Source of the DNA: Candidatus Campbellbacteria bacterium
GTDB taxonomy: Bacteria > Patescibacteriota > Minisyncoccia > Phycocordibacterales > JAXHMZ01
Length of the DNA: 64,000 nucleotides
Assembly: GCA_034521025.1 (NCBI GenBank)
Contig: JAXHMZ010000005.1
Span: 197,176-261,175 of the forward strand
Direction of reading: 5' to 3'
Positions 7,500 through 63,828 of this stretch are shown here, one piece after another. The first letter of the stretch is position 1. Each line of letters opens with the position of its first letter. The notes under the pieces are model-generated. The model saw only the letters and a list, made by a program, of their open reading frames with translations. It was not told where the DNA came from and did no database searches. The position numbers and the translations under genes were made by a program.

Positions 7500-9236
7500 A
7501 TGGCTCCTATGGGTAAGTCTATTATATTTGAGGAGAAGTCTAAAAAAGTTCCGAAGGGGGTATTGAAAGGCTATTCAGCGGTAGCTAGAACGCTTCTTTA
7601 CAATCGTGGCTTCACCGACGAAAGAGAAGTCGAAGATCTTTTAAAAGGAAACTACGAAGAAGGAACGCACGATCCTTATCTTATGCTGGGAATGGATGTT
7701 GCGGTTGAAAGAATAGTGAAAGCCCTAAAGAACGATGAAAAGATCGCTATCTTTTCTGACTATGACGCTGACGGGGTGCCGGGAGCCGTAGTTCTGCGGG
7801 AGTTTTTAGAGAAGATCGGTTTTAGCAATATAGAGTCTTATATTCCGCATCGTGGCATTGAAGGTTTCGGACTGAATAATACGGCTATCGCTGAATTAAA
7901 GGACAAGGGGGTGACACTTTTGATCACGGTTGATTGTGGCATTGCTGATATTGAGGAGGTCTCATACGCTCAAAGCGAAGGAATAGACGTCATTATAAGT
8001 GATCACCACATCTCTCCCGAGGAACCGCCGCCTGCTATTGCGATACTTAACCCCAAGCAACCGTCTTGCAAATATCCGTTTGATGAACTTTGCGGAGCAG
8101 GTGTGGTGTATAAATTAGTTCAAGCTCTGATAGCTCACGAAGAAGTTTCGTTTTCGATTGGGCAGGAAAAATGGTTGCTTGATCTGGTCGGTATAGCAAC
8201 TCTTGCCGATATGGTTCCGTTGGTGGACGAGAACAGAATATTCGCTCGCTATGGCCTTCTGGTGCTAAATAAGGGACGTCGTCTGGGTCTGCGAGAGTTG
8301 CTTTCACAAGCCAAGGTGGACTATCGGACTATCTCAGAGGATGATGTTTCGTTTACCATCGCGCCGAGAATAAACGCCGCCAGTCGAATGTCGCATCCTG
8401 ATATTGCCTTCGGTCTCCTGTTTGCCAAGACTCGCAAAGAAGCGATGGAACAAGCGGCAAAGCTCGAAGAGATAAACAAAGAGCGCAAAACTTTGGTTGC
8501 TCGTATAGCAAAGGAGGTCAAAAAGAAATTTGCTGATCGCAAGCCCGGACCGGTATTGGTAACCGGCAATCCGCGCTGGAAACCGGGCATACTCGGACTT
8601 ATTGCCAACTCGCTCTCTGACAGTTTCGAGCGGCCGGCTTTTGTTTGGGGCAGAGAAGGAGAATCGGGAAGTATAAAGGGTTCGGTTCGCTCAGACGGAA
8701 TTATGAATGTGGTTGAAATTATGAAGTCTTTGCCCGAAGAGACCTTCATAAACTATGGCGGACACGCTTTTTCCGGAGGATTTTCAATAGAGCTTGAAAA
8801 GGTACATTCTCTAGAGGGTCTTTTAAATGATGCGGCACGCACCACAAAAGAAACGGACGAAGAGGAGCTGTCGTCCGCCAAACGATATTTTGATATGAGC
8901 GTCAAATCGGAAGAAATAGAATCTGGTCTTTTTGAGGAAGTTCTTTCCTTGTCACCGTTTGGAGTAGGATTTGAAAAACCGATATTTAAGATAGAAGACG
9001 TAGAAGTTGTTTCGGTCAAAGAGTTTGGTAAAGATAAGAATCATCTAGGGATCGATTTCAAAGGAAAAAACGGCAAAGTTTTCAACGCGATAGGATTTTT
9101 TATGACAAAAGACAGCTTTTCTTTAGATATTGAGCCTGGCAAAACAATAACTATTTATGGTGCATTAGAAAAGAGTTTCTTTAGGGGTAGAGCAGAATAT
9201 CGTGTCCGGATCGAACACCTAGAAGAGCATATTTAA
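7500..9236 (+). CDS. recJ: Single-stranded-DNA-specific exonuclease RecJ
   Basis: DHH motifs ('IAIFSDYDADG', 'DHH') and a DHHA1-like C-terminal region; 578 aa. Confidence 0.85.
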   Translation: MAPMGKSIIFEEKSKKVPKGVLKGYSAVARTLLYNRGFTDEREVEDLLKGNYEEGTHDPYLMLGMDVAVERIVKALKNDEKIAIFSDYDADGVPGAVVLREFLEKIGFSNIESYIPHRGIEGFGLNNTAIAELKDKGVTLLITVDCGIADIEEVSYAQSEGIDVIISDHHISPEEPPPAIAILNPKQPSCKYPFDELCGAGVVYKLVQALIAHEEVSFSIGQEKWLLDLVGIATLADMVPLVDENRIFARYGLLVLNKGRRLGLRELLSQAKVDYRTISEDDVSFTIAPRINAASRMSHPDIAFGLLFAKTRKEAMEQAAKLEEINKERKTLVARIAKEVKKKFADRKPGPVLVTGNPRWKPGILGLIANSLSDSFERPAFVWGREGESGSIKGSVRSDGIMNVVEIMKSLPEETFINYGGHAFSGGFSIELEKVHSLEGLLNDAARTTKETDEEELSSAKRYFDMSVKSEEIESGLFEEVLSLSPFGVGFEKPIFKIEDVEVVSVKEFGKDKNHLGIDFKGKNGKVFNAIGFFMTKDSFSLDIEPGKTITIYGALEKSFFRGRAEYRVRIEHLEEHI

Positions 9237-10553: not shown

Positions 10554-11282
10554 ATGAAAACGATTTATATTTTTACTGATGGCGCGTCAAAGGGGAATCC
10601 TGGTCCGGGTGGCTGGGGAGCGGTTTTGGTTGCCGGAAACGAAGTTAAAGAAATAGGTGGCTTTGAAGAGAACACGACCAATAATCGTATGGAATTGATC
10701 GCGGCAATAAAAGCTTTGGAAGAGGTAAGAAGCAACGAAACAAACTCAAAAGAAATAAACGTCTTTTCTGATTCTTCTTACCTTATAAACGGGATCACGA
10801 AATGGATCTATGGCTGGCAGAAAAAGAATTGGAAAACTACAACTAAAAAGGATGTCGCAAACAGCGGTCTTTGGGAGCGCCTTTGGGAGGTCCAAAAAAA
10901 CAGGAATATAAACTGGAAATACGTTCCCGGACACAGTGATGTTGCCGGAAACGAAAGAGCGAATGATATCGCCGAAGAGTTTGCTAGAGGAAAAGACCCC
11001 GATCTCTTCAGAGGTCCGGAAGAGTCTTACCAGATCGGGCTAGTCAGTAACGAGAAGCCCCTAGGAAGGGACGGGCAAATTTCTGATCTAGAAAAAGCGA
11101 GGGAGAGTAAAGGCAAGAATAAAGGCAAGGCGTATTCTTATGTATCGCTCTTAGATGGCAAGATAAAGACGCATAGTACTTGGCAAGAGTGCGAAAAAAG
11201 AGTAAAAGGCAAACCGGCTCTTTATAAAAAAGCAATGTCAAAGGAAGACGAAAAAAATATCATCAGTGAGTTTCGCGGTTAA
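10554..11282 (+). CDS. rnhA: Ribonuclease HI with a C-terminal extension
   Basis: 'FTDGASKGNPGPGGWGAVL', 'TNNRMEL', 'SDSSYLINGI' and 'GHSDVAGNERAD'-like motifs. Confidence 0.85.
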   Translation: MKTIYIFTDGASKGNPGPGGWGAVLVAGNEVKEIGGFEENTTNNRMELIAAIKALEEVRSNETNSKEINVFSDSSYLINGITKWIYGWQKKNWKTTTKKDVANSGLWERLWEVQKNRNINWKYVPGHSDVAGNERANDIAEEFARGKDPDLFRGPEESYQIGLVSNEKPLGRDGQISDLEKARESKGKNKGKAYSYVSLLDGKIKTHSTWQECEKRVKGKPALYKKAMSKEDEKNIISEFRG

Positions 11283-11290
11283 AAGTATAT

Positions 11291-12850
11291 ATGCTGAAAT
11301 TCAGATTCTTTATTCTTCCAATTTCTCTTTTTGGGGTGGCTTCAGGTCTGTTTTTGTTTGAATTTTTGGGATTGGGAGAATATTTTATCCTTTTCCTCCT
11401 TTTAATAATTTTTAGCGTAGTTTTTATAGCTTTTGCGTTCAGGGCTGAAAGAAATCTGAAAGTTTTGATCGTTTTCTCATCACTGTTTTTTCTCAGCGTC
11501 ATTTTTGGTTTAATTCGCGCCAATTTATCTGAAAAAGAGTTTATTCTGTCTCGTCATTCGGGTGAAAGGATCGAAGTAATGGGTACTGTTATGAACGACC
11601 CGGAAGACCGCGGGTCTTATTTATTTGTGATCTTGGAAGCTGATTTTATCCGGACGGATAAAGTGTGCGCCTCTGTTAGTGAGCGAGTGCTAGTCAGGAC
11701 GGATCGTTTTGAACCGATATCTTATGGTGACAATTTGCGTGTTCGGGGGTTAATTGAAAGGCCGGAGCCGTTCGTTACTGACACTGATAGAGTATTTGCT
11801 TATGATGAGTTTTTAGAAAAAGATAATATCGGCGCGGTAATTTCTTTTGCTTCCGTGGACGTTATTTCTTCTGGCGATGGTAATCTTATAAAACAAATGC
11901 TTTTTTCTCTAAAGAATGAATATCTAGATACGGTGTCTCGCTATGTTCCGGACCCGGAGTCATCTCTCCTCGGTGGTTTAACGGTAGGTGCCAAGCAGTC
12001 TCTCGGCGAAGAGTTAGAAAAAGACTTTCGCTCAACCGGCATCATTCATATTGTCGTTCTTTCCGGATACAACGTAGTGATAATAGCTGAAGCAATTTTT
12101 ATTTTATTGCGATATTTTTCAACCAGAGTCAGAGTGTCGTTGGGGATCATTGCGGTGAGCTTCTTTGCCGTTCTTGTTGGCGGAGGAGCTACTGTGGTGC
12201 GCGCTTCTATAATGGCGATAGCCGCTTTAGTTGGAAGGGCGTTGGGGCGGGAAGTTCTTGCGATCCAGACATTGTTTTTTGCCGCCATTGCTATGCTAAT
12301 TTTTAATCCATCTCTCTTGCTTTATGATCCGTCTTTTCAACTATCTTTTATGGCGACTCTCGGCCTCATTCTTTTATCAAAACCCCTTGAGAAATATCTC
12401 CATTGGGTACGATACAAGTGGCTTCGCGACATAACGACCGCAACGGTAGCGACACAGTTGGCGGTTTTGCCTTTGCTAATTTACTTAGTCGGAGAAGTTT
12501 CTCTTGTTGCTCTGCCGGTCAATCTTCTGGTTCTGCCAAGTGTACCACCGGCTATGTTACTCGGATTCCTTACCGGAATTTTCGGCTCTATTCCGTTTAT
12601 CTCTCTTGTTCTCGGACCCGTATTCGGGGCTCTGTCCTTTTTCTTCTTGAGTTATGAGTTGTTAGTAATTGAAGTTTTTGCTGCTCTGCCTTTCGCTTCT
12701 CTAAGATTGCCCCACTTTCCCTTTGTGTTTGTGTTGAGTTTATACGCGTTACTCGGTTTTTTCACTTTGGTGGTTTCTCGTCCTGGCGCGGTCAGAAAAA
12801 ATATACTACTAGATGTTTCTCATTTATTTTTGGGAAAAAGAGAAAAATGA
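11291..12850 (+). CDS. comEC: ComEC/Rec2-family DNA internalisation channel protein (DUF4131 plus competence domain; no MBL domain)
   Basis: Multiple TM helices, with 'GIIHIVVLSGYNVVIIAEA' in the competence-domain region. Confidence 0.75.
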   Translation: MLKFRFFILPISLFGVASGLFLFEFLGLGEYFILFLLLIIFSVVFIAFAFRAERNLKVLIVFSSLFFLSVIFGLIRANLSEKEFILSRHSGERIEVMGTVMNDPEDRGSYLFVILEADFIRTDKVCASVSERVLVRTDRFEPISYGDNLRVRGLIERPEPFVTDTDRVFAYDEFLEKDNIGAVISFASVDVISSGDGNLIKQMLFSLKNEYLDTVSRYVPDPESSLLGGLTVGAKQSLGEELEKDFRSTGIIHIVVLSGYNVVIIAEAIFILLRYFSTRVRVSLGIIAVSFFAVLVGGGATVVRASIMAIAALVGRALGREVLAIQTLFFAAIAMLIFNPSLLLYDPSFQLSFMATLGLILLSKPLEKYLHWVRYKWLRDITTATVATQLAVLPLLIYLVGEVSLVALPVNLLVLPSVPPAMLLGFLTGIFGSIPFISLVLGPVFGALSFFFLSYELLVIEVFAALPFASLRLPHFPFVFVLSLYALLGFFTLVVSRPGAVRKNILLDVSHLFLGKREK

Positions 12851-12892
12851 AAGCCCGCTTTTACGGACTTTTAAAATTGAATCGCTCGGGGT

Positions 12893-13516
12893 TTAGGATC
12901 GCGCGCTTTGGAATCTCTCTTCCGGAACTCGCCAGTTGGTGTTTTTCATTACTGCTTCAACGTAACTGCTCTTTTCGCTCGGAGCGTAGTCCAGCATAAA
13001 GGCGTGCTCCCACATATCAATTCCAAAGATGAATTGCGCGCTGTTTAGGTGTCCAAGGTGTTGCTCATCTATCCAGCTGTTTAGCAACCTGTCTTTTTCA
13101 CGATCGTAATAAAGGATCGCGAATCCGATGCCGCGCATACCTGTTAAGTAAACGATGTCCTCCTTCCAGGTCTCGACAGAACCAAAGTCCTCTTCAAGTT
13201 TTTGAGCAAGGGGGCTTTCCGGATCTATCTCCTGAATACCTTCCGTGAACTGCTCAAAGAAATATTCGTGGTTGCGCATTCCTCCGAATTCAAAGGCGAA
13301 ACGCCTGCGCGCCTCTAGAAGAGCGTATTTGTTATTCTCATCGCCACGAAGGGACTCTATAAGATCCAGAACTTTATTGGTATTCTTTACGTAACCTGAG
13401 TAGAGACCCAGGTGGGTGTCCATTGTTTTCTCGGAGATCCCTTCGAGCGCGTGGAACTCGAATTGTTGTTCGCTATAGTGATTCATAAGTTTTACTGTTA
13501 GCTTGTAATTAATCAC
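12893..13516 (-). CDS. sodA: Fe/Mn-family superoxide dismutase
   Basis: C-terminal 'IFGIDMWEHAFMLDY' matches the GIDVWEHAYY SOD signature. N-terminal helical hairpin with His residues. 207 aa. Confidence 0.8.
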   Translation of the reverse strand: MINYKLTVKLMNHYSEQQFEFHALEGISEKTMDTHLGLYSGYVKNTNKVLDLIESLRGDENNKYALLEARRRFAFEFGGMRNHEYFFEQFTEGIQEIDPESPLAQKLEEDFGSVETWKEDIVYLTGMRGIGFAILYYDREKDRLLNSWIDEQHLGHLNSAQFIFGIDMWEHAFMLDYAPSEKSSYVEAVMKNTNWRVPEERFQSARS

Positions 13517-13537
13517 ATTGTAACACGCTTACCACCT

Positions 13538-14416
13538 ATGAGATCCTTCAGGTCTTTATTAATACTCCTTACTTTCATCTCCTTTTTTGTAGCGGTGGCG
13601 TTGTGGCTCGTCCTATTTATTCACTCAATAGAGAAACCGCTGGAGGTGGTTTTTCTCGATGTAGGGCAGGGAGACGCTATTTTTATAGAAACACCCAAGG
13701 GCGAAGAAATTCTAATAGATGGCGGTAGAGATAACTCGGTGTTGCGTGGGCTTTCGCAAGTTATGCCGTTCTGGGATCGCTCGATCGATCTTGTCATAGC
13801 GACTCACCCGGACGCTGATCATATCGGCGGAATTGTTGACGTCCTAAGAAGGTATAAAGTGAAAGCTATTCTTGATACAGAAGTAGAAAACGACACCCCG
13901 GCCTTCATTTCATATTCTCAAGAAGTTCAAAAGGAAAAAGCTCGATCGATAGATCCTGTGCGAGGCTCGCAGTTATTTTTTGACAATGTTGTTCTGACTA
14001 TTTTGTCAAAAGAATCTAGTGTGACAAGCGACCCCAACGATGCTTCGATCATTGTCCGTCTTGACTATGGCGAGACAAGCTTTTTGTTAACTGGTGACGC
14101 GGACAAGAAGACGGAGCGAGAGTTGTTGGGTTTTTACGATGCTCTTGAAGCAGATGTTTTAAAGGTGGGACACCACGGCTCAAGTACTTCTACCGCGAGC
14201 GAATTCGTCTCGGCTGTTTCACCGGAGTTCGCTGTTATATCAGTGGGCGAAGACAATTCCTATGGCCACCCAACCGATGAAGTGCTCAATACTTTAGAGA
14301 AACAAGAAGTAGAAATTCTGCGGACCGACGAAGACGGTATGATCAGATTTGAAAGTAATGGCGATATTCTCGTACAAAAGGACCCCGGATTTTTCCAAAA
14401 GTTAATAGGAATATAA
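13538..14416 (+). CDS. Metallo-beta-lactamase-fold domain protein (ComEC C-terminal nuclease-like domain encoded as a separate gene)
   Basis: N-terminal TM segment; 'LDVGQGDAIFIE', 'HPDADHIGG' and 'GHHGS' MBL motifs. Confidence 0.75.
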   Translation: MRSFRSLLILLTFISFFVAVALWLVLFIHSIEKPLEVVFLDVGQGDAIFIETPKGEEILIDGGRDNSVLRGLSQVMPFWDRSIDLVIATHPDADHIGGIVDVLRRYKVKAILDTEVENDTPAFISYSQEVQKEKARSIDPVRGSQLFFDNVVLTILSKESSVTSDPNDASIIVRLDYGETSFLLTGDADKKTERELLGFYDALEADVLKVGHHGSSTSTASEFVSAVSPEFAVISVGEDNSYGHPTDEVLNTLEKQEVEILRTDEDGMIRFESNGDILVQKDPGFFQKLIGI

Positions 14417-14430
14417 TTATTTAATCACAC

Positions 14431-14459
14431 TTGACAAAAGTATGCTTATGATATATAAA
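14431..14459 (+). promoter_or_regulatory. Sigma70-like promoter TTGACA-N17-TATAAA
   Basis: Near-consensus -35/-10 with 17-nt spacing, directly upstream of the GC-rich element. Confidence 0.55.
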
Positions 14460-14465
14460 GTAGAC

Positions 14466-14786
14466 CGACGTCCTTTTCAAACGGGAGGAGAAGAAGATGC
14501 GCGGAAGCAATAACTCGCACAAAGGTGTTCCTCGGGACGCGGATTGCGCTGTAAAGCCAACCTGCGCTCGCCCAAAGCCCTCTGGCCAAGCGAAGCGTGA
14601 TGCCGCTCGTAGGCTGCGCCAGGGGCTTAAGCAGAGAGATCGTCTCGTAACAGAGACGGCTTTCGAGGAAACCCCAAGAGAGGATACCGCAGAGCCGCGT
14701 CGCTCCACTTCCGCGATGTCTGTCTGAGCGTATACATAACGTTCTGACATCAGATAGCCCCGAGTTTAACAGCTCGGGGTTTTTTA
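14466..14786 (+). ncRNA. Unidentified GC-rich structured element (candidate ncRNA, or a 76-aa Arg-rich ORF 14497..14727)
   Basis: Bounded by a strong promoter and a hairpin (ccccgag...gctcgggg) plus T-run terminator at 14757..14786. Locally elevated GC with long-range complementarity (CGCGGAAG/CUUCCGCG). GGAGGA sits 9 nt upstream of an ATG at 14497. Confidence 0.3.
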
Positions 14787-14838
14787 TTTAGGCAACTTTA
14801 GTGTTCGATTTTCGCGCAAATTTATATATAATGGCGGT

Positions 14839-51783: not shown

Positions 51784-54537
51784 ATGGAAAGAAATCCATT
51801 CGAGGGAAAGAAATTTGATAGTACCGAAGAGGAACTCGCGTTCCTTCGCGAGGAGCTGCGCAAAAGAGAGAGTGCTCTTGAAACGCTACCTGGTGAGAGT
51901 CAAGAAGTAGAAAGAGAAAACAGAGAAGCCAAAGCGCGTGAGGTTGTATCTGAATACGCGAATAACTCTTTTGCTTTAAATGAAGAGAGACCGGAAGAAA
52001 TCACTCAGTCGCCGGAAATTAAGGAGCTTGGTTTAGCTCCGGAAAAACACGACGAAAAAGTCTCCGAATTGCTGAATTTGGCCAAGGAGAAAGGCATCAA
52101 ACAGACTCTAAGAGAAGTTCGAGCTCTCAATGATCCGCATCTCGAAGACGACTTTCACCGTCTTTTAGCGGAATATATAAAGACAGACCATCAGTTATCA
52201 GGGGTTGAAAATAACAAACGACTTTCCAGGGGTCTAAATCTCTCTCTTTTTGAGGTTAAGGTATCAAAGTCGGACCTCGACGACGGCAAAGATGAAACTT
52301 TTAAATCAAATCATTCCCTTATGCAGGAGTTGTTCTCCGGTCTTCGCTCTATTGCAGAAGGTGGCATAGAAGGAGGAAAAAAAGGTTTTTACTTTGGAAT
52401 AGAAATTGCTCTTGAGTACATTGGATCTCAAGTGAGATTTTTTGTAGCTATTCCCAAAGAAAAAATAGAGATGTTCGAGAAACAATTTTCTGCTTTATTT
52501 CCGAATGCGCACATCTCTTACGTAAAGGATGACTATAATATCTTTAATGAAAACGGCAAAGCAAGTGTTTCCAGAGGGTTCCTGAAATCTTCTGAAATTT
52601 TACCTATACGCACTTTTGATCTTTTCGAAACCGACCCTCTTAATACCATTTTGAATTCTTTTACTGAACTTGAACGCGAAGGTGAAGGGGCGGCGTTACA
52701 GTTCTTATTTTCTCCTCGTGGAGAAGGGGCGAACAAAAATTTTCGAGAGGTTAAAGAAAGGGTAGAAAAAGGGTCCAGTTTAGACAAAGCATTAGAAGAG
52801 GGCACTTTAGCCGGAGAATTCAAGAAACTTTTTCTACCCGGAAAGAAAAAGTCTAAAAACGAAGATGAACGAGAAGAGGTTTCAGAAAACGAGGAATTGG
52901 TAGAAAAGATAGAAAATAAAATATCTTCTCCTTTGTATAAAGTTAACATTCGCGTAATTACTTCAGCTAACGAAGTAGGCAGGGCAAAAGTTATTCGCGA
53001 GAACATAGAGTCGGCTTTCAATCAATTTGACCTTGAAGGATCGAACGCTATTCGTTTCAAAGAAGTTAAAGGCAACGCATTACGGAAGTTTGAGAACAAA
53101 TATTCTTTTAGATTGTTTGATGAGAGCAATGCCTTTTCGTTAAATACAAGAGAAGCGGCAACGCTTGTTCATATTCCCGGGCTTGGTACACATGTTTTAA
53201 GATCTTCGGGTTCACCTGGTCGTGAATCAGGAGCGCCTCCGAATGATATGCCGGAAGAGGGACTTTTGGTTGGCACTAATGATTATAGAGGGCGTGAACG
53301 CAAGATATTCCTTTCTCCCGACGATCGTCTGCGTCACTTGTATGTAGTAGGGCAAACCGGCACCGGTAAGACCACTATGTTAAAAAATATGATCACTCAA
53401 GACATATTGGATGGAGAAGGTGTCTGTATGATAGATCCGCACGGCTCAGATATAGAAGACATTCTAGCGGTTGTACCCGAAGAAAGATATGACGATGTCA
53501 TATATTTTGATCCGAGCGATCAGTCTCGTCCGATGGGACTTAATATGCTTGAGTTTGACAGCACTAGACCCGAAGAGAAAACGTTCGTTGTGAACGAAAT
53601 GTTATCTATATTTAACAAACTCTTCGATATGAAGACGGCGGGAGGTCCTATGTTTGAGCAGTATTTCCGCAACGCCGTACTATTGGCTCTAGGAGGAGAT
53701 GAGCCGGCTACTCTCTTTGATGTTTCGCGAGTCTTATCCGACGCTGATTTTCGCAACAAGAAAATTTCTGTTTCTAATAATCCGCCAGTAATACAATTTT
53801 GGAATGAGATAGCAAACAAAGCGGGCGGAGAAGCGTCGTTGCAAAATATAGTTCCTTACATTACTTCAAAATTTGATGTCTTTCTTTCTAATGACGTAAT
53901 GCGGCCTATTATTGCCCAGAAGCAATCATCCTTTAGTTTTCGTGAAGTTATGGATGAGAGAAAAATTCTCTTGGTCAATCTTTCCAAAGGAAAATTGGGC
54001 GATATAAACTCTTCTCTTATCGGCCTTATAATCGTCGGGAAATTGCTCCTAGCGGCGCTATCGCGAGCGGATTCGCAAAGAGAAGAATTTCCTCCTTTCT
54101 ATTTATACTTAGATGAGTTCCAAAACATAACCACCGACTCCATATCTACGATCCTTTCTGAGGCGCGCAAATATAAGCTTTCTCTCACGGTGGCGCACCA
54201 GTTCATAGCTCAACTTTCCGAACCCATTCGTGATGCGGTATTTGGCAACGTCGGGTCACTTGCAAGTTTTAGGGTGGGTGCCGATGATGCTGAATATTTG
54301 GAAAAATTATTTTCACCGACTTTTGATGCTCAAGATATTATGAATATTCAAAATCGTCAGGCAATACTGAAGCCGTTGGTCAGCGGCACCCCTCGTGATC
54401 CGTTTTTGATAAATACGCAGGCGCCAGTTGAAGGTAATGAGGGCCAAATAGAGAAACTCAAGGATCTTTCTAAAGACAGATTCGGGCGTGATCGTACAGA
54501 AATCGAAAGAGAGATCATAGAGAACTATAGAAAATGA
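51784..54537 (+). CDS. P-loop NTPase of the TraG/VirD4/HerA (AAA_10/DUF87) family with a ~480-aa N-terminal extension
   Basis: Walker A 'VVGQTGTGKTTML', 'CMIDPHGSD', Walker B 'LYLDEFQNI', then 'ARKYKLSLTVAHQF...QL' resembling coupling-protein C-terminal motifs. Start is 4 nt after the upstream gene. Confidence 0.7.
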   Translation: MERNPFEGKKFDSTEEELAFLREELRKRESALETLPGESQEVERENREAKAREVVSEYANNSFALNEERPEEITQSPEIKELGLAPEKHDEKVSELLNLAKEKGIKQTLREVRALNDPHLEDDFHRLLAEYIKTDHQLSGVENNKRLSRGLNLSLFEVKVSKSDLDDGKDETFKSNHSLMQELFSGLRSIAEGGIEGGKKGFYFGIEIALEYIGSQVRFFVAIPKEKIEMFEKQFSALFPNAHISYVKDDYNIFNENGKASVSRGFLKSSEILPIRTFDLFETDPLNTILNSFTELEREGEGAALQFLFSPRGEGANKNFREVKERVEKGSSLDKALEEGTLAGEFKKLFLPGKKKSKNEDEREEVSENEELVEKIENKISSPLYKVNIRVITSANEVGRAKVIRENIESAFNQFDLEGSNAIRFKEVKGNALRKFENKYSFRLFDESNAFSLNTREAATLVHIPGLGTHVLRSSGSPGRESGAPPNDMPEEGLLVGTNDYRGRERKIFLSPDDRLRHLYVVGQTGTGKTTMLKNMITQDILDGEGVCMIDPHGSDIEDILAVVPEERYDDVIYFDPSDQSRPMGLNMLEFDSTRPEEKTFVVNEMLSIFNKLFDMKTAGGPMFEQYFRNAVLLALGGDEPATLFDVSRVLSDADFRNKKISVSNNPPVIQFWNEIANKAGGEASLQNIVPYITSKFDVFLSNDVMRPIIAQKQSSFSFREVMDERKILLVNLSKGKLGDINSSLIGLIIVGKLLLAALSRADSQREEFPPFYLYLDEFQNITTDSISTILSEARKYKLSLTVAHQFIAQLSEPIRDAVFGNVGSLASFRVGADDAEYLEKLFSPTFDAQDIMNIQNRQAILKPLVSGTPRDPFLINTQAPVEGNEGQIEKLKDLSKDRFGRDRTEIEREIIENYRK

Positions 54538-60648: not shown

Positions 60649-60815
60649 GCGGTTTGTATGGTGAAGTAGGGTGAAAGTCCCTCACTGTCGCGCAACGGTT
60701 AGAGTCCGATCCCATACAATGCCTCCCAAGTGGAGCTGCTTATGATGCGCGTGACGTCCTGGTGAACACCTTTCGTATATCACCGAATGCACACGCATCG
60801 GTGATTTATGTTTTA
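60649..60815 (+). promoter_or_regulatory. Cobalamin-riboswitch-like element with an intrinsic terminator expression platform, upstream of nrdB
   Basis: P1 stem 'UUGUAUGG...CCAUACAA' enclosing 'GGUGAAAGUCCC...CACUGUCGCGCAACGGUUAGAG'. This closely parallels the E. coli btuB core 'GGAGCUGACGCGCAGCGGUAAGG' and the 'GGUGnAAnUCC' motif. It is followed by hairpin caccgaatgc / gcatcggtg plus a U-run. Confidence 0.5.
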
Positions 60816-60827
60816 AACACATAGCGT

Positions 60828-62141
60828 ATGCAAAAGACTTCCATCACAACAATAATTAAACGAGACGGTTCCGAGGAAGCCTTTGATCTTTCCAAGATCA
60901 CCGCAGCGATCTCAAAGGCTTTTGATGCGACCGATACAGGTTCGGCAGAAGAGGCGAAAAAAGTTGCCAATACAGTATATGAAAAGATCGCTACTTTATG
61001 CGATCACGCTTCTGCTGACAGAGACGCAGACGAGCGCTGCAACGATGGCAAGCCCGCCGTCGAGACCATTCAGGATCTTGTCGAAGAATCTCTTATGGAG
61101 CATAACTACCATGAGATAGCCAAACGCTATATCCTCTATCGCAACGAGCGTGCCAAACAGCGTGAACCCGACCTCTTCGAGAAGCGCACAAACCTACGCC
61201 CGTATGAATACCCTGATCTAGTTGAATATGTAGATGCTATTCGGCACTCCTACTGGCTCCATACCGAGTTTAATTTTACGAGTGACGTGCAAGATTTTAA
61301 GGTCAATGTTTCCGACAAGGAGCGTAGTGCGATCAAAAACGCTATGCTTGCAGTCGCTCAGGTTGAAGTAGCGGTTAAGACGTTCTGGGGAGATATTTAT
61401 AAAAAGATGCCAAAGCCCGAGGTAGGTGCTGTTGGCTATACGTTTGCGGAAAGCGAGGTGCGACATATGGACGCGTACGCACATCTTTTGGAAATACTTG
61501 GACTCAACGACGAATTCAAGCGCATAAAAGAGATTCCGGCTATACACGAGCGTCTCACGTATCTCGAAGACATCCTGCAAAGATCCCGCACCAATGACAA
61601 TCGTGAATATACGGAGGCGATTTTGTTATTCTCGCTTTTCACCGAGCACGTATCGCTCTTCTCGCAGTTCCTCATCATTATGTCCTTCAATAGACATAGG
61701 AATCTATTCAAGGGCATATCCAATGCGGTGGAGGCAACCTCGAAAGAGGAACAGATCCATGGACTTTTCGGGAGCGAACTTATTAATCAAATAAAGCGCG
61801 AACACCCCGAATGGTTTGACGATGAACACAAAGAGACGATCTATCAAGTGTGTCGCGACGCGTACGCCGCAGAAGAAAAGATCATTGACTGGATCTACGA
61901 GAAAGGCGAGTTGGATTTCTTGCCGGCTGTTACCGTTAAAGAGTTTGTTAAAAATCGGCTCAACAACTCGCTCGAGAGAATCGGAATGGAAAGACCCTTC
62001 GAGGTAGACGAAAAGCGTATCGAGGAGACCGATTGGTTTGACGATGAAGTGATCGCTACTAAACACAACGACTTTTTCTTCAAACGATCGATCAATTACA
62101 ACAAACGTTCCGCAAGCGTTACCAGTGATGACTTATTTTAA
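60828..62141 (+). CDS. nrdB: Class I ribonucleotide reductase beta subunit with an N-terminal ATP-cone domain
   Basis: N-terminal 'IIKRDGSEEAFDLSKITAAISKA' ATP-cone. Ferritin-like core with 'ESEVRHMDAY' (ExxH plus radical Tyr) and 'EEQIHGLF' (ExxH). Confidence 0.85.
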   Translation: MQKTSITTIIKRDGSEEAFDLSKITAAISKAFDATDTGSAEEAKKVANTVYEKIATLCDHASADRDADERCNDGKPAVETIQDLVEESLMEHNYHEIAKRYILYRNERAKQREPDLFEKRTNLRPYEYPDLVEYVDAIRHSYWLHTEFNFTSDVQDFKVNVSDKERSAIKNAMLAVAQVEVAVKTFWGDIYKKMPKPEVGAVGYTFAESEVRHMDAYAHLLEILGLNDEFKRIKEIPAIHERLTYLEDILQRSRTNDNREYTEAILLFSLFTEHVSLFSQFLIIMSFNRHRNLFKGISNAVEATSKEEQIHGLFGSELINQIKREHPEWFDDEHKETIYQVCRDAYAAEEKIIDWIYEKGELDFLPAVTVKEFVKNRLNNSLERIGMERPFEVDEKRIEETDWFDDEVIATKHNDFFFKRSINYNKRSASVTSDDLF

Positions 62142-62151
62142 ATAGTATATT

Positions 62152-63828
62152 ATGTCGTACCAATGGCTAAATGAAAACTCTCGTACTTTTCTTGAACGTG
62201 GATACCTCCAGAAGGGAGCTACCCCGGAGAGCCGCGTTCGTGAGATCGCTGAGACCGCTGAAAAGATCCTTGAAAAACCCGGTTTTGCTGATAAATTTGA
62301 AAAATACATGGCCGCCGGCTATTACTCGCTCGCTACGCCGGTCTGGATCAACTTTGGCTTAAATACCGGTTTACCGATAAGCTGTTTTGGTTCTTACATT
62401 CCGGATGATATGGCGAACATTCTCTATACTCAGGCGGAGGTGGGAATGATGAGTAAGTTCGGCGGCGGAACGTCGGCTTACTTTGGTGAGCTGCGCGGTC
62501 GTGGCGCGACGATCAAAGATCGCGGGCATTCATCCGGTTCCGTCCATTTTATGCAGCTGTTTGAGACGATCACTAATATTGTCAGTCAGGGCTCGGTACG
62601 GCGCGGACAGTTTTCTCCATATTTGCCGATCGATCATCCGGACATTGAAGAATTCCTTGATATTGGTTCAGAAGGGAATCCTATCCAGAAGCTCACTCAC
62701 GGTGTCACCGTTGATGACAAGTGGCTGCAGGGGATGATCGACGGCGACGAGGATAAGCGCCGTATTTGGGCGAAACTCATCGAACGGCGCGGACAAATGG
62801 GCTATCCCTATATTTTCTTCACTGACAATGTGAACAACAATACCGTTGATGTTTATAAAGATAAGGATCTCAAAATCTACGCGAGCAATCTCTGCACAGA
62901 GATCATGCTTCCGTCGCGGTCAGATTGGTCGTTTGTCTGCGATCTCTCCTCAATGAACCTGCTGTACTATGACGAATGGAAGGACACGGATGCCGTCGAG
63001 ACAATGACGCAACTTCTCGACGCTGTTATGAGCGAGTTTATACAAAAGCTAGAGGCTTTGCGTGATTCGGACGATAAAGATGATCGACTCGCATTCTTGT
63101 TTATGGAGCGCGCGTACAATTTCGCAACCGCGAACCGCGCGATCGGACTCGGCGCACTCGGCTGGCATTCTCTGCTGCAATCGAAAATGATCCCACTCGA
63201 GAGCGATGAAGCGAATGAGATAAATGCTGAGATCTTCAAAACCATTCGTGACAAAGCTTATGCCGCTTCTTCCCAGATGGCTAAGGATTATGGCGAACCC
63301 GAAATTCTCAAAGGCTATGGCCGCCGCAACACAACCGTTATGGCGGTTGCACCGACCACGTCCTCGGCTTTTATTATCGGTCAAGTGTCTCAGAGTATCG
63401 AACCCTACTTCTCTAACTGCTATGTCAAAGACATCGATAAGATGAAGGTAACGATCCGCAATAGCTCGCTTGAGAAGCTGCTTGAAGAAAAAGGAAAAAA
63501 TGATCGCGAAACCTGGAGCAGTATCCGTGACAACGACGGTTCCGTCCAGCACCTCTCATTCCTTAACGAGAATGAAAAAGCTGTCTTTCGCACGTTCGCC
63601 GAGATCGACCAATCTGTGATCATCAAGCAGGCGGCAGATAGGCAAGAGTACATTGATCAGGCCCAGTCTCTCAATCTAATGATCCCGCCGGATATGTCCG
63701 CCAAGGAAATAAACGAACTCTATCTCTTGGCCTGGCGTCAAGGAGTAAAAACACTGTACTACCAACATAGCATGAATGCAGCCCAACAACTCAGCCGAGC
63801 AAAGGTGTGCATTGCGTGTGAAGCATAA
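62152..63828 (+). CDS. nrdA: Class I ribonucleotide reductase alpha subunit, short form without an ATP-cone
   Basis: 'NLCTEIMLPS' active-site region and a C-terminal 'CIAC' cysteine pair. 558 aa, with no N-terminal ATP-cone. Confidence 0.85.
   Translation: MSYQWLNENSRTFLERGYLQKGATPESRVREIAETAEKILEKPGFADKFEKYMAAGYYSLATPVWINFGLNTGLPISCFGSYIPDDMANILYTQAEVGMMSKFGGGTSAYFGELRGRGATIKDRGHSSGSVHFMQLFETITNIVSQGSVRRGQFSPYLPIDHPDIEEFLDIGSEGNPIQKLTHGVTVDDKWLQGMIDGDEDKRRIWAKLIERRGQMGYPYIFFTDNVNNNTVDVYKDKDLKIYASNLCTEIMLPSRSDWSFVCDLSSMNLLYYDEWKDTDAVETMTQLLDAVMSEFIQKLEALRDSDDKDDRLAFLFMERAYNFATANRAIGLGALGWHSLLQSKMIPLESDEANEINAEIFKTIRDKAYAASSQMAKDYGEPEILKGYGRRNTTVMAVAPTTSSAFIIGQVSQSIEPYFSNCYVKDIDKMKVTIRNSSLEKLLEEKGKNDRETWSSIRDNDGSVQHLSFLNENEKAVFRTFAEIDQSVIIKQAADRQEYIDQAQSLNLMIPPDMSAKEINELYLLAWRQGVKTLYYQHSMNAAQQLSRAKVCIACEA

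What the first reader, a model, noticed from the sequence alone, without database searches (positions are those of the whole stretch)
11291..14416. ComEC encoded as two separate genes with an antisense superoxide dismutase gene between them
The membrane/competence-domain protein (11291-12850) lacks the usual C-terminal metallo-beta-lactamase nuclease domain. A stand-alone TM-anchored MBL protein with matching motifs (13538-14416) lies 690 bp downstream on the same strand, with sodA inserted antisense between them. This may be an ancestral split form or a disruption of ComEC. It matters for whether DNA uptake via the adjacent type IV pilus genes is functional.
Basis: partly seen in the sequence, partly recalled or inferred. 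Interest (0 to 1): 0.5.

Follow-up and report, generated by a model that had tools for sequence, protein, structure and literature searches.

The report
Two-gene ComEC conserved across CPR bacteria
In this Campbellbacteria-like genome the DNA-uptake protein ComEC is encoded as a channel protein plus a separate membrane-anchored nuclease, an intact arrangement conserved across many CPR bacteria rather than a broken gene, with a superoxide dismutase gene lodged between the halves in one subgroup.

Summary

The two halves map onto adjoining parts of full-length N. carbonis ComEC (15-466 and 517-788). The break lies in the cytoplasmic TM10-TM11 loop, and the MBL protein's anchor corresponds to TM11.

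This is not a disruption. Among 44 CPR loci none is fused. In 28 of 37 informative loci ComEC-N lies upstream on the same strand, always with the same break point and invariant catalytic motifs. Fused homologues were found only in Chloroflexota and Gemmatimonadota.

In seven CPR loci the two genes abut or overlap (ATGA-type junctions in several). The antisense SOD occurs in only one Paceibacteria subclade, and other genes occupy the slot elsewhere.

Most likely this is a two-subunit ComEC. Méheust 2019 already noted that the fusion is absent in CPR, and PGAP names both halves ComEC. An unfused ComEC is required for transformation in Southlakia. I rate it a new variant of a known kind, of moderate interest.

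The parts
11291..12850 (+). ComEC channel subunit ('ComEC-N'), 519 aa. It has three N-terminal TM helices, an OB fold (DUF4131), a Competence channel domain, a last TM helix at about residues 475-498, and then a basic tail that is probably cytoplasmic. It has no MBL domain.
   Evidence: Pfam PF03772 E 2.1e-51 and PF13567 E 2.5e-15. It matches TIGR00361 positions 82-369 of 663. Residues 18-469 align to N. carbonis ComEC 30bt_A residues 15-466. It is 100% identical to an NCBI protein named 'ComEC/Rec2 family competence protein [Candidatus Campbellbacteria bacterium]'.
12850..12871 (.). GC-rich hairpin with flanking T/A runs, in the 42-nt spacer between the convergent ComEC-N and SOD stop codons. 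It looks like a terminator and may act in both directions.
   Evidence: The terminator scan found 9 pairs with a loop of 4 on the - strand. The sequence was read directly. Its function is inferred.
12893..13486 (-). Fe/Mn-family superoxide dismutase, 197 aa from the ATG at 13486. The ORF extends to a GTG at 13516. It is antisense to both ComEC genes.
   Evidence: Pfam Sod_Fe_C E 3.1e-19 and Sod_Fe_N E 1.2e-6, both above their gathering scores. The best PDB match is Aquifex FeSOD 1coj (E 4e-19), and the His, His, Asp and His positions align with conserved residues. Relatives are mostly 195-198 aa.
13487..13537 (.). 51-nt divergent intergenic region between the SOD start and the MBL start. It must hold or overlap the start signals of both genes.
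   Evidence: Sequence read. No convincing sigma-70-like promoter for the MBL gene was found. There is no nucleotide conservation with relatives.
13538..14416 (+). ComEC nuclease subunit, 292 aa: an N-in single-pass TM anchor followed by an extracytoplasmic MBL (beta-lactamase-like) domain.
13556..13624 (+). Codons for the TM anchor (residues 7-29), the counterpart of TM11 in fused ComEC. It includes the conserved Trp23.
   Evidence: Hydropathy peak 2.84 with R2 and R5 on the N-terminal side. It aligns in register with the last TM helix of fused Chloroflexota ComECs. The Trp is present in 29 of 44 CPR stand-alone proteins and 14 of 21 fused proteins. The helix is absent from the aligned part of 15 of 15 stand-alone MBLs of Firmicutes and other non-CPR lineages.
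13805..13822 (+). Codons for the H-P-D-A-D-H metal-binding motif (residues 90-95), the ComEC-type HxDxDH variant of the MBL motif.
   Evidence: H90, P91, D94 and H95 are invariant in 17 stand-alone homologues, together with D41/G43/Q44/G45, D187, H212/H213 and H244. The stretch is nearly identical to N. carbonis ComEC ('sthpdadhigg'). The HxDxDH motif of ComEC is described in PMC12455585.
7500..11282 (+). Conserved upstream neighbours on the same strand: RecJ (7500-9236) and RNase H (10554-11282). The RNase H stop is 8 nt before the ComEC-N start.
   Evidence: Pfam DHH/DHHA1/RecJ_OB and RNase_H. The order RecJ - RNase H - ComEC-N recurs in relatives.

Best explanation
This is a two-subunit ComEC, the normal form of the DNA-uptake channel in a large part of the CPR (Patescibacteria).

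Subunit 1 (11291-12850) carries the DNA-binding OB fold and the TM4-TM10 single-strand DNA channel, and it ends in the cytoplasm after TM10.

Subunit 2 (13538-14416) starts in the cytoplasm and crosses the membrane once, through a helix that corresponds to TM11 of fused ComEC. It displays the Mn/metal-dependent MBL nuclease domain outside the cell.

I infer that the two proteins associate in the membrane through the peripheral TM10/TM11 packing and the OB-MBL contact seen in full-length ComEC. The nuclease would then degrade the non-transported strand while the other strand enters through the channel. Once inside, that strand is available for recombination or nucleotide salvage; RecJ is encoded next door.

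The break sits in a structurally permissive cytoplasmic loop. In some CPR lineages the two genes still abut or overlap and look translationally coupled. In the Paceibacteria subclade that includes this organism, an Fe/Mn SOD gene was inserted antisense into the gap, so the nuclease gene must now be transcribed separately.

Shown here: gene identities, the break point, conservation and the synteny series. Inferred: physical association, nuclease activity and independent transcription.
For: 1. The halves are complementary. ComEC-N maps to TIGR00361 positions 82-369 and the MBL protein to 415-663. On N. carbonis ComEC 30bt_A they map to 15-466 and 517-788.

2. The MBL protein is ComEC-type.
- The top NCBIfam match is ComEC_Rec2 at 168 bits, against 100 bits for the best non-ComEC family.
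- All 6 PDB sequence matches are ComEC.
- In an NJ tree the CPR stand-alone MBLs sit next to the fused Chloroflexota ComEC CTDs.

3. The catalytic motifs are invariant in 17 homologues: DVGQGD, HP[DE]xDH, TGD, GHHGS and YGHP.

4. The anchor corresponds to TM11. It aligns in register with fused proteins and shares a conserved Trp. It is absent from the stand-alone MBLs of Firmicutes and other non-CPR lineages.

5. Conservation is strong.
- The top 120 database homologues of each half are all single-part proteins: 255-325 aa for the MBL and 425-548 aa for ComEC-N.
- Among 88 loci (87 fetched loci plus the window), 0 of 44 CPR loci are fused.
- 28 of 37 informative CPR loci have ComEC-N upstream on the same strand.
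- The break point is the same everywhere. The ComEC-N profile match ends at about position 467-498, mostly 489-498, and the MBL match starts at about position 1-11.

6. Five of the seven abutting CPR loci have overlapping stop and start codons (e.g. ATGA in L050); in the other two the ORFs lie 4-6 nt apart.

7. A pseudo-fusion AlphaFold model has mean pLDDT 89.4 and pTM 0.71. Low confidence is confined to the junction, residues 498-517.

8. In the cryo-EM structure, TM10 and TM11 are peripheral, TM11 is poorly ordered, and a cytoplasmic helix CH1 lies between them. The break is therefore at a tolerant site (PMC13539106).

9. An unfused 482-aa ComEC is required for transformation in a cultured CPR bacterium (PMC10633639).
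Against: - No direct evidence shows that the two proteins bind each other.
- The structure model joins them covalently. The tool gives no inter-domain error estimate, and no full-length ComEC structure was available in the fold libraries for comparison.
- The unpaired alignment smeared 26-44 tail residues of the ComEC-N rows into the MBL half.
- In 9 of 37 informative CPR loci, no ComEC-N lies within 4.7-8 kb upstream of the MBL gene. Linkage is therefore not obligatory.
- In vitro, OB and MBL domains mixed in trans gave no rate enhancement, whereas a fusion gave about 7-fold (PMC12455585). A split enzyme would have to compensate by docking in the membrane.
- In Southlakia the only annotated MBL-fold protein is a 211-aa PF13483 protein, not obviously ComEC-type. 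Some CPR bacteria may therefore manage without this subunit.
- No promoter for the MBL gene was identified.
Confidence: 0.7

Rival explanations
1. The MBL protein is an autonomous, membrane-anchored extracellular nuclease. It would cut environmental or host DNA for nucleotide scavenging or pre-processing, like NucA or EndA. It descends from a ComEC CTD but no longer works as a docked ComEC subunit, and its linkage to ComEC-N is historical.
For: - 9 of 37 informative CPR loci lack ComEC-N nearby.
- Stand-alone ComEC-type MBL proteins without the TM11-like helix exist in Firmicutes (Cohnella, Heyndrickxia, Clostridia), with no ComEC-N within about 8 kb upstream.
- In this clade the nuclease gene is transcriptionally separated from ComEC-N by an antisense gene and a hairpin.
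- S. pneumoniae uses a separate membrane nuclease, EndA (PMC8579336).
- CPR bacteria are thought to scavenge DNA for nucleotides (PMC6744442).
Against: - The anchor helix is conserved in register with TM11 of fused ComEC, including a Trp. That is more than a generic anchor needs.
- Gene order and orientation are kept in 76% of informative loci, and translational coupling occurs in several lineages.
- The isolated ComEC MBL domain binds DNA very weakly without the OB fold (PMC12455585).
Confidence: 0.2
2. The locus is a disrupted, decaying ComEC. A formerly fused gene was broken by insertion of the SOD gene, leaving non-functional remnants.
For: A gene lies between the two halves on the opposite strand. 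Each half alone scores below the TIGR00361 equivalog cut-off: 95.9 and 168.1 bits against 190.
Against: - Both ORFs are full length and have their own start codons.
- The same two-gene architecture with the same break point occurs in dozens of species, with 36-62% identity in the MBL subunit (41-62% in the SOD-containing loci).
- The catalytic residues are invariant in the 17 aligned homologues.
- The split exists without any inserted gene in other CPR lineages.
- No fused CPR homologue was found among 44 loci.
- Méheust 2019 reports that the fusion is essentially absent from CPR.
Confidence: 0.03
3. The MBL protein is an unrelated MBL-fold hydrolase, such as a B3-like beta-lactamase or a Pce-like phosphorylcholine esterase, that merely happens to lie near ComEC.
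For: There are weaker NCBIfam matches to the AHM B3-like MBL (E 1e-28, 100 bits against a cut-off of 590) and to defence-system MBLs. Pce is the second-best structural neighbour. A paper on CPR MBL-like genes treats such proteins as potential multifunctional or resistance enzymes without mentioning ComEC (PMC10459063).
Against: - The best sequence, profile and structural matches are all ComEC CTD.
- The protein has the ComEC-type HxDxDH motif.
- Its TM helix corresponds to TM11.
- Linkage with ComEC-N is conserved.
- Pce is also the nearest non-ComEC neighbour of authentic ComEC CTD.
Confidence: 0.05

Closest known systems
Canonical three-domain ComEC/Rec2 (B. subtilis ComEC; Neomoorella carbonis ComEC cryo-EM 30bt; B. 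halodurans and Shewanella ComEC 9vc6/9vcb/9vcf)
   Same: The domain content and order are the same: three TM helices, OB fold, Competence channel, TM11, MBL nuclease. Both window proteins align end to end with adjoining parts of 30bt_A. The metal-binding motifs are identical.
   Different: Here the polypeptide is broken in the cytoplasmic TM10-TM11 loop into two separately encoded proteins. In this clade an antisense SOD gene lies between the genes. Neither half alone reaches the TIGR00361 equivalog cut-off.
'DC-profile' ComEC (DUF4131 + Competence, no Lactamase_B) of Pimentel & Zhang 2018, and the unfused CPR ComEC family fam000603 of Méheust et al. 2019
   Same: The 519-aa protein is exactly this type. 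[quoted passage not shown] Southlakia epibionticum ComEC (482 aa, the same two domains) is required for natural transformation.
   Different: Those studies count domains per protein and do not report a separately encoded, TM11-anchored ComEC-type nuclease next to the channel gene. No such statement appears in the passages I searched. Here the 'missing' CTD is present in trans.
EndA of Streptococcus pneumoniae (a separate membrane-bound nuclease that degrades the non-transforming strand)
   Same: It is a functional analogue: a membrane-anchored extracytoplasmic nuclease encoded separately from the ComEC channel (PMC8579336).
   Different: [quoted passage not shown] The CPR protein is a bona fide ComEC CTD homologue that keeps the TM11 helix.
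Stand-alone ComEC-like MBL proteins of Firmicutes and other phyla (e.g. Cohnella, Heyndrickxia coagulans, Clostridia loci L054, L070, L074)
   Same: The MBL core and motifs are the same, and they are also encoded apart from any Competence domain.
   Different: They lack the TM11-like helix in the aligned region, are 290-509 aa with other extensions, have no ComEC-N within about 8 kb upstream, and form a separate group in the tree.

Membership tests
ComEC/Rec2 DNA internalisation protein (TIGR00361; three-domain architecture) | Competence (PF03772) transmembrane channel domain | tested here: met
   In the 519-aa protein, E 2.1e-51, covering profile positions 1-269 of 270.
ComEC/Rec2 DNA internalisation protein (TIGR00361; three-domain architecture) | N-terminal OB fold (DUF4131, PF13567) | tested here: met
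   E 2.5e-15, residues 34-190. The model shows a beta-rich domain at residues 93-193.
ComEC/Rec2 DNA internalisation protein (TIGR00361; three-domain architecture) | MBL nuclease domain at the C-terminus of the same polypeptide | tested here: not met
   The channel protein stops at 12850. The MBL domain is in a separate ORF 687 nt downstream, with an antisense gene between them.
ComEC/Rec2 DNA internalisation protein (TIGR00361; three-domain architecture) | Score at or above the curated equivalog cut-off (190 bits) | tested here: not met
   The scores are 95.9 bits (ComEC-N) and 168.1 bits (MBL) individually. They cover non-overlapping model positions 82-369 and 415-663, so a rough sum of 264 bits would pass.
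ComEC/Rec2 DNA internalisation protein (TIGR00361; three-domain architecture) | Required for uptake of DNA across the cytoplasmic membrane | not testable with these tools
   There is only indirect support: an unfused CPR ComEC is required for transformation in S. epibionticum (PMC10633639).
ComEC beta-lactamase-like nuclease domain (CTD) | MBL fold closest to the ComEC CTD | tested here: met
ComEC beta-lactamase-like nuclease domain (CTD) | Metal-binding motifs, including the ComEC-type HxDxDH | tested here: met
   HPDADH at residues 90-95. DVGQGD, TGD, GHHGS and YGHP are invariant in 17 homologues and aligned with N. carbonis and M. glycerini ComEC.
ComEC beta-lactamase-like nuclease domain (CTD) | Extracytoplasmic location, following the last TM helix (TM11) | tested here: met
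   This is prediction only. There is a single N-terminal TM helix with R2 and R5 on the N-side (positive-inside rule), and it aligns with TM11 of fused proteins.
ComEC beta-lactamase-like nuclease domain (CTD) | Metal-dependent DNase activity | not testable with these tools
   This needs biochemistry.
Fe/Mn superoxide dismutase | Sod_Fe_N and Sod_Fe_C domains with the His, His, Asp, His metal ligands | tested here: met
   Both Pfam domains score above their gathering thresholds. The ligand positions align with conserved residues of Aquifex FeSOD 1coj. Fe versus Mn specificity is not determined, and NCBIfam equivalog scores are far below their cut-offs.
Unrelated MBL hydrolases (B3-like beta-lactamase AHM; Pce phosphorylcholine esterase) | Best profile or structure match to that family, reaching its cut-off | tested here: not met

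The most novel reading that the evidence does not exclude
Splitting ComEC may let these cells control the nuclease subunit independently of the channel.

In this clade it has its own transcription unit, diverging from an SOD gene. Its recruitment to the channel could then be conditional, for example on redox or metal state. That would switch DNA uptake between strand-preserving transformation and plain nucleotide scavenging.

The recurrent placement of SOD, or elsewhere of metal-homeostasis and HTH regulator genes, in the slot between the halves would then reflect functional coupling to a Mn/Fe-dependent extracytoplasmic nuclease and not neutral synteny.

More broadly, part of the 'CTD-less' half of bacterial ComECs may have their nuclease supplied in trans. 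This bears on an open question stated in the ComEC literature.
Probability: 0.12. Interest if true: 0.65.

Novelty: new variant of a known kind. Interest (0 to 1): 0.4.

Why it matters
ComEC is the universal DNA-import channel of natural transformation. Structural work from 2021 to 2026 treats it as one three-domain polypeptide and leaves open how the non-transported strand is degraded in the roughly half of ComECs that lack the nuclease domain.

This locus and its relatives show that in a large part of the CPR the 'missing' nuclease is not missing. It is encoded as a separate protein that keeps the TM11 helix. Three consequences follow:
- Per-protein domain censuses misclassify these organisms.
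- The split provides a natural version of the 'same polypeptide versus in trans' experiment on OB-nuclease cooperation.
- It identifies the TM10-TM11 loop as a permissive site for engineering split ComEC.

For CPR biology, it supports the view that the DNA-uptake machinery next to the pilus genes is complete and not degenerate.

Tried and rejected
I used an unpaired block-diagonal alignment instead (A3).
- The promoter scan gave no more hits than shuffled sequence and none suitable for the MBL gene.
- blastn of the non-coding stretches against all relatives found nothing, because the relatives are too divergent.
- Rfam found nothing near the locus.
- Literature searches for 'split ComEC' and similar phrases found no description of this arrangement.
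- The CPR MBL paper (PMC10459063) does not mention ComEC.
- I rejected pseudogene/disruption, assembly artefact and unrelated MBL hydrolase as explanations (see rivals).
- I considered a mirror-tree co-evolution test but did not run it. Any two vertically inherited neighbouring genes would correlate, so it would not discriminate.
Full report
**Observation**

- 11291-12850(+) encodes 519 aa with a full-length Competence domain (PF03772, E 2.1e-51) and the OB fold DUF4131 (E 2.5e-15), and nothing else.
- 13538-14416(+) encodes 292 aa with a Lactamase_B domain (E 1.6e-19).
- 12893-13516(-) matches both Fe/Mn SOD domains above their gathering scores.
- The SOD probably starts at the ATG at 13486, giving 197 aa. 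Most relatives are 195-198 aa.
- The SOD's four metal-ligand positions align with those of Aquifex FeSOD.
- The gap between the two + strand genes is 687 nt.
- Both ComEC-like proteins are 100% identical to NCBI entries from a Candidatus Campbellbacteria MAG. NCBI already names both of them 'ComEC/Rec2 family competence protein'.

**Are the two proteins the two halves of ComEC?**

Yes.
- On the NCBIfam equivalog model TIGR00361, the first protein covers positions 82-369 and the second covers 415-663 of 663. ComEC_Rec2 is the best family for the MBL protein, at 168 bits against 100 bits for the next unrelated family.
- Against PDB sequences, all six matches of the MBL protein are ComEC. Its residues 17-275 align to residues 517-788 of the Neomoorella carbonis full-length ComEC (E 5.7e-39). 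ComEC-N residues 18-469 align to residues 15-466 of the same chain.
- The ComEC-type metal motif HxDxDH is present as HPDADH. Together with DVGQGD, TGD, GHHGS and YGHP it is invariant in 17 stand-alone homologues.
It is not met.

**Where is the break?**

- ComEC-N ends with a last TM helix at about residues 475-498, followed by a basic tail.
- The MBL protein begins MRSFRS and then has one TM helix at about residues 7-29. This predicts an N-in, C-out topology.
- That helix aligns in register with the last TM helix of fused Chloroflexota ComECs. A Trp is conserved in it in 29 of 44 CPR stand-alone proteins and 14 of 21 fused proteins.
- The stand-alone MBLs of Firmicutes and other non-CPR lineages lack the helix in the aligned region.
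- In the cryo-EM structure, TM10 and TM11 are peripheral and do not line the channel. They are separated by a short cytoplasmic helix, and TM11 is poorly ordered (PMC13539106).
- The split therefore falls in the cytoplasmic TM10-TM11 loop, a structurally tolerant place.

**Is it a disruption or a stable architecture?**

It is stable.
- The top 120 database homologues of the MBL protein are all 255-325 aa. The top 120 homologues of ComEC-N are all 425-548 aa, with only DUF4131 and Competence domains.
- Neighbourhoods of relatives show the order RecJ - RNase H - ComEC-N - [slot] - MBL - ... - L28(-) - M50 - S12 - S7 - EF-G. This includes a complete Kaiserbacteria genome whose MBL protein is only 47% identical.
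- A scan of GTDB species genomes gave 80 more loci. I classified all 88 loci (87 fetched plus the window) with profile HMMs:
  - 21 are fused, all from Chloroflexota or Gemmatimonadota, 669-967 aa.
  - 14 are split with an antisense SOD, and 2 more short contigs have an SOD upstream.
  - 9 are split with something else in the gap.
  - 9 are split and abutting.
  - 35 have the MBL gene alone.
- I restricted the set to the 44 loci that are CPR by record title and tree position. Some automated titles are unreliable.
  - None is fused.
  - 28 of the 37 with enough upstream sequence have ComEC-N upstream on the same strand.
  - 9 have no ComEC-N within 4.7-8 kb.
- The profile coordinates show the same break point in all split loci.
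- Of the seven abutting CPR loci (including Magasanik-, Giovannoni- and Paceibacterota), five have overlapping stop and start codons (e.g. ATGA in L050), as in translationally coupled operon genes; in L045 and L072 the ORFs lie 4-6 nt apart.
- One Chloroflexota 'split' (L063) looks like a frameshift.

**The SOD**

- In a crude NJ tree of the MBL core, all 16 SOD-containing loci fall in one CPR clade. This clade includes the window and the Kaiser-, Taylor-, Nomura- and Yonath-bacteria.
- The CPR groups sit next to the fused Chloroflexota ComEC CTDs. The Firmicutes stand-alone MBLs form a separate group.
- Within and around the SOD clade, the slot can instead hold other genes:
  - an antisense 196-aa membrane protein (two Yonathbacteria);
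  - an HTH_5 regulator;
  - a methyltransferase;
  - SOD plus a Trp-repressor-like gene.
- The SOD is therefore a secondary insertion into an already split gene pair. The slot is a small hot spot for gene turnover.
- SOD is a common CPR gene, found in 66-83% of groundwater MAGs (PMC8672522).
- A hairpin lies between the convergent ComEC-N and SOD stop codons (12850-12871). Only 51 nt separate the SOD and MBL starts.
- I infer that the nuclease gene is transcribed independently, but no promoter was identified.

**Mechanism**

The best-supported reading is a two-subunit ComEC (confidence 0.7).
- The channel/OB subunit and the TM11-anchored nuclease subunit would reassemble in the membrane into the canonical architecture.
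- A pseudo-fusion AlphaFold model (811 aa, unpaired block-diagonal MSA) is confident overall, with pLDDT 89.4 and pTM 0.71. Only the junction at residues 498-517 is disordered.
- That model has limits.
  - The covalent link biases it.
  - The alignment was slightly smeared at the junction.
  - No inter-domain error estimate was available.
  - No full-length experimental ComEC was available for comparison.
- Published biochemistry shows that OB and nuclease domains cooperate only when tethered: about 7-fold when fused, and no boost when mixed in trans (PMC12455585). The split system would therefore need membrane docking.
- The main rival (0.2) is that the nuclease acts on its own as an anchored scavenging nuclease.
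- The disruption hypothesis (0.03) and the unrelated-hydrolase hypothesis (0.05) are essentially excluded.

**Function of DNA uptake**

- Type IV pilus genes lie at the window start: a T2SSE ATPase at 11-871, PilC at 877-2100 and a pilin at 2104-2571.
- RecJ and RNase H immediately precede ComEC-N, and this is conserved in relatives.
- In Southlakia epibionticum, ComEC (SEML1_0777) is 482 aa with only PF03772 and PF13567, and it is required for natural transformation.
- The absence of a fused nuclease therefore does not imply a dead system.

**Novelty**

- Méheust et al. [quoted passage not shown] PGAP labels both halves as ComEC.
- I found no paper that describes the separately encoded, TM11-anchored nuclease partner, the conserved break point, the abutting-to-interrupted synteny series, or the SOD insertion.
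- The ComEC literature still lists strand degradation in CTD-less ComECs as an open question.
- I rate it a new variant of a known kind, with moderate interest (0.4).

Noticed in passing
window 14417-14838: This is a 420-nt stretch after the MBL gene with no convincing gene call. It is richer in GC than its surroundings (0.48-0.51). It is predicted to be strongly structured (MFE -134 kcal/mol, z -3.9) and ends in a strong terminator hairpin at 14756-14781. Two overlapping mechanical ORFs (14497-14727(+), 76 aa; 14421-14750(-), 109 aa) were listed here and not evaluated. There was no Rfam match above noise and no nucleotide conservation in relatives. It could be a 3' UTR or a small RNA.
   Followed up: partly
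window 51784-54537: A 917-aa protein has weak matches to type IV secretion coupling proteins (TrwB/TraG/VirD4: T4SS-DNA_transf, TraG-D_C). It may belong to the conjugation-like T4SS recently described in Patescibacteria (PMC12102498).
   Followed up: no
window 60651-60722: An AdoCbl-II (cobalamin) riboswitch (41.3 bits, above the gathering score) lies just upstream of the ribonucleotide reductase genes at 60828-63828. The first of these carries an ATP-cone.
   Followed up: no
window 21204-32175: Three very large consecutive ORFs (1992, 626 and 1009 aa) are present. Two carry Peptidase_S74 (intramolecular chaperone of endosialidase or tail-spike) domains. These are typical of giant CPR surface proteins, or possibly phage-derived fibres.
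   Followed up: no
window 10554-11282: The RNase H has a C-terminal extension of about 100 aa (…YSYVSLLDGKIKTHSTWQECEKRVKGKPALYKKAMSKEDE…). From memory it resembles the RNase H1/caulimovirus hybrid-binding domain, but placed C-terminally. Pfam did not report it. The gene ends 8 nt before ComEC-N, and the RecJ - RNase H - ComEC order is conserved in relatives.
   Followed up: partly
Southlakia epibionticum SEML1_0131-0134 (supplement of PMC10633639): The only annotated MBL-fold protein of this transformable Saccharibacterium is 211 aa (PF13483). It lies between an arsR-type HTH regulator and L28(-)/site-2 protease. This is the same syntenic slot as the ComEC-type MBL gene here and in L004 (HTH_5 - MBL - ... 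- L28). It may be a replaced or degenerate counterpart.
   Followed up: partly
L006 1-6864: In one relative the MBL gene is preceded by a metal-homeostasis block instead of ComEC-N: a CsoR-like repressor, an HMA P-type ATPase and a Zip transporter. Together with the SOD and the metal-type HTH regulators seen in the slot elsewhere, this hints at a metal theme around the nuclease gene. It could also be coincidence.
   Followed up: no
L071 6389-8831 and L046 2850-3758: Split or stand-alone ComEC-type MBL genes also appear in contigs labelled Armatimonadota/Chthonomonadales. In L071 a 527-aa ComEC-N overlaps a 294-aa MBL by 17-26 nt, depending on the start chosen. This suggests the two-gene form may not be confined to CPR, unless these are frameshifts or mislabelled bins.
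   Followed up: no
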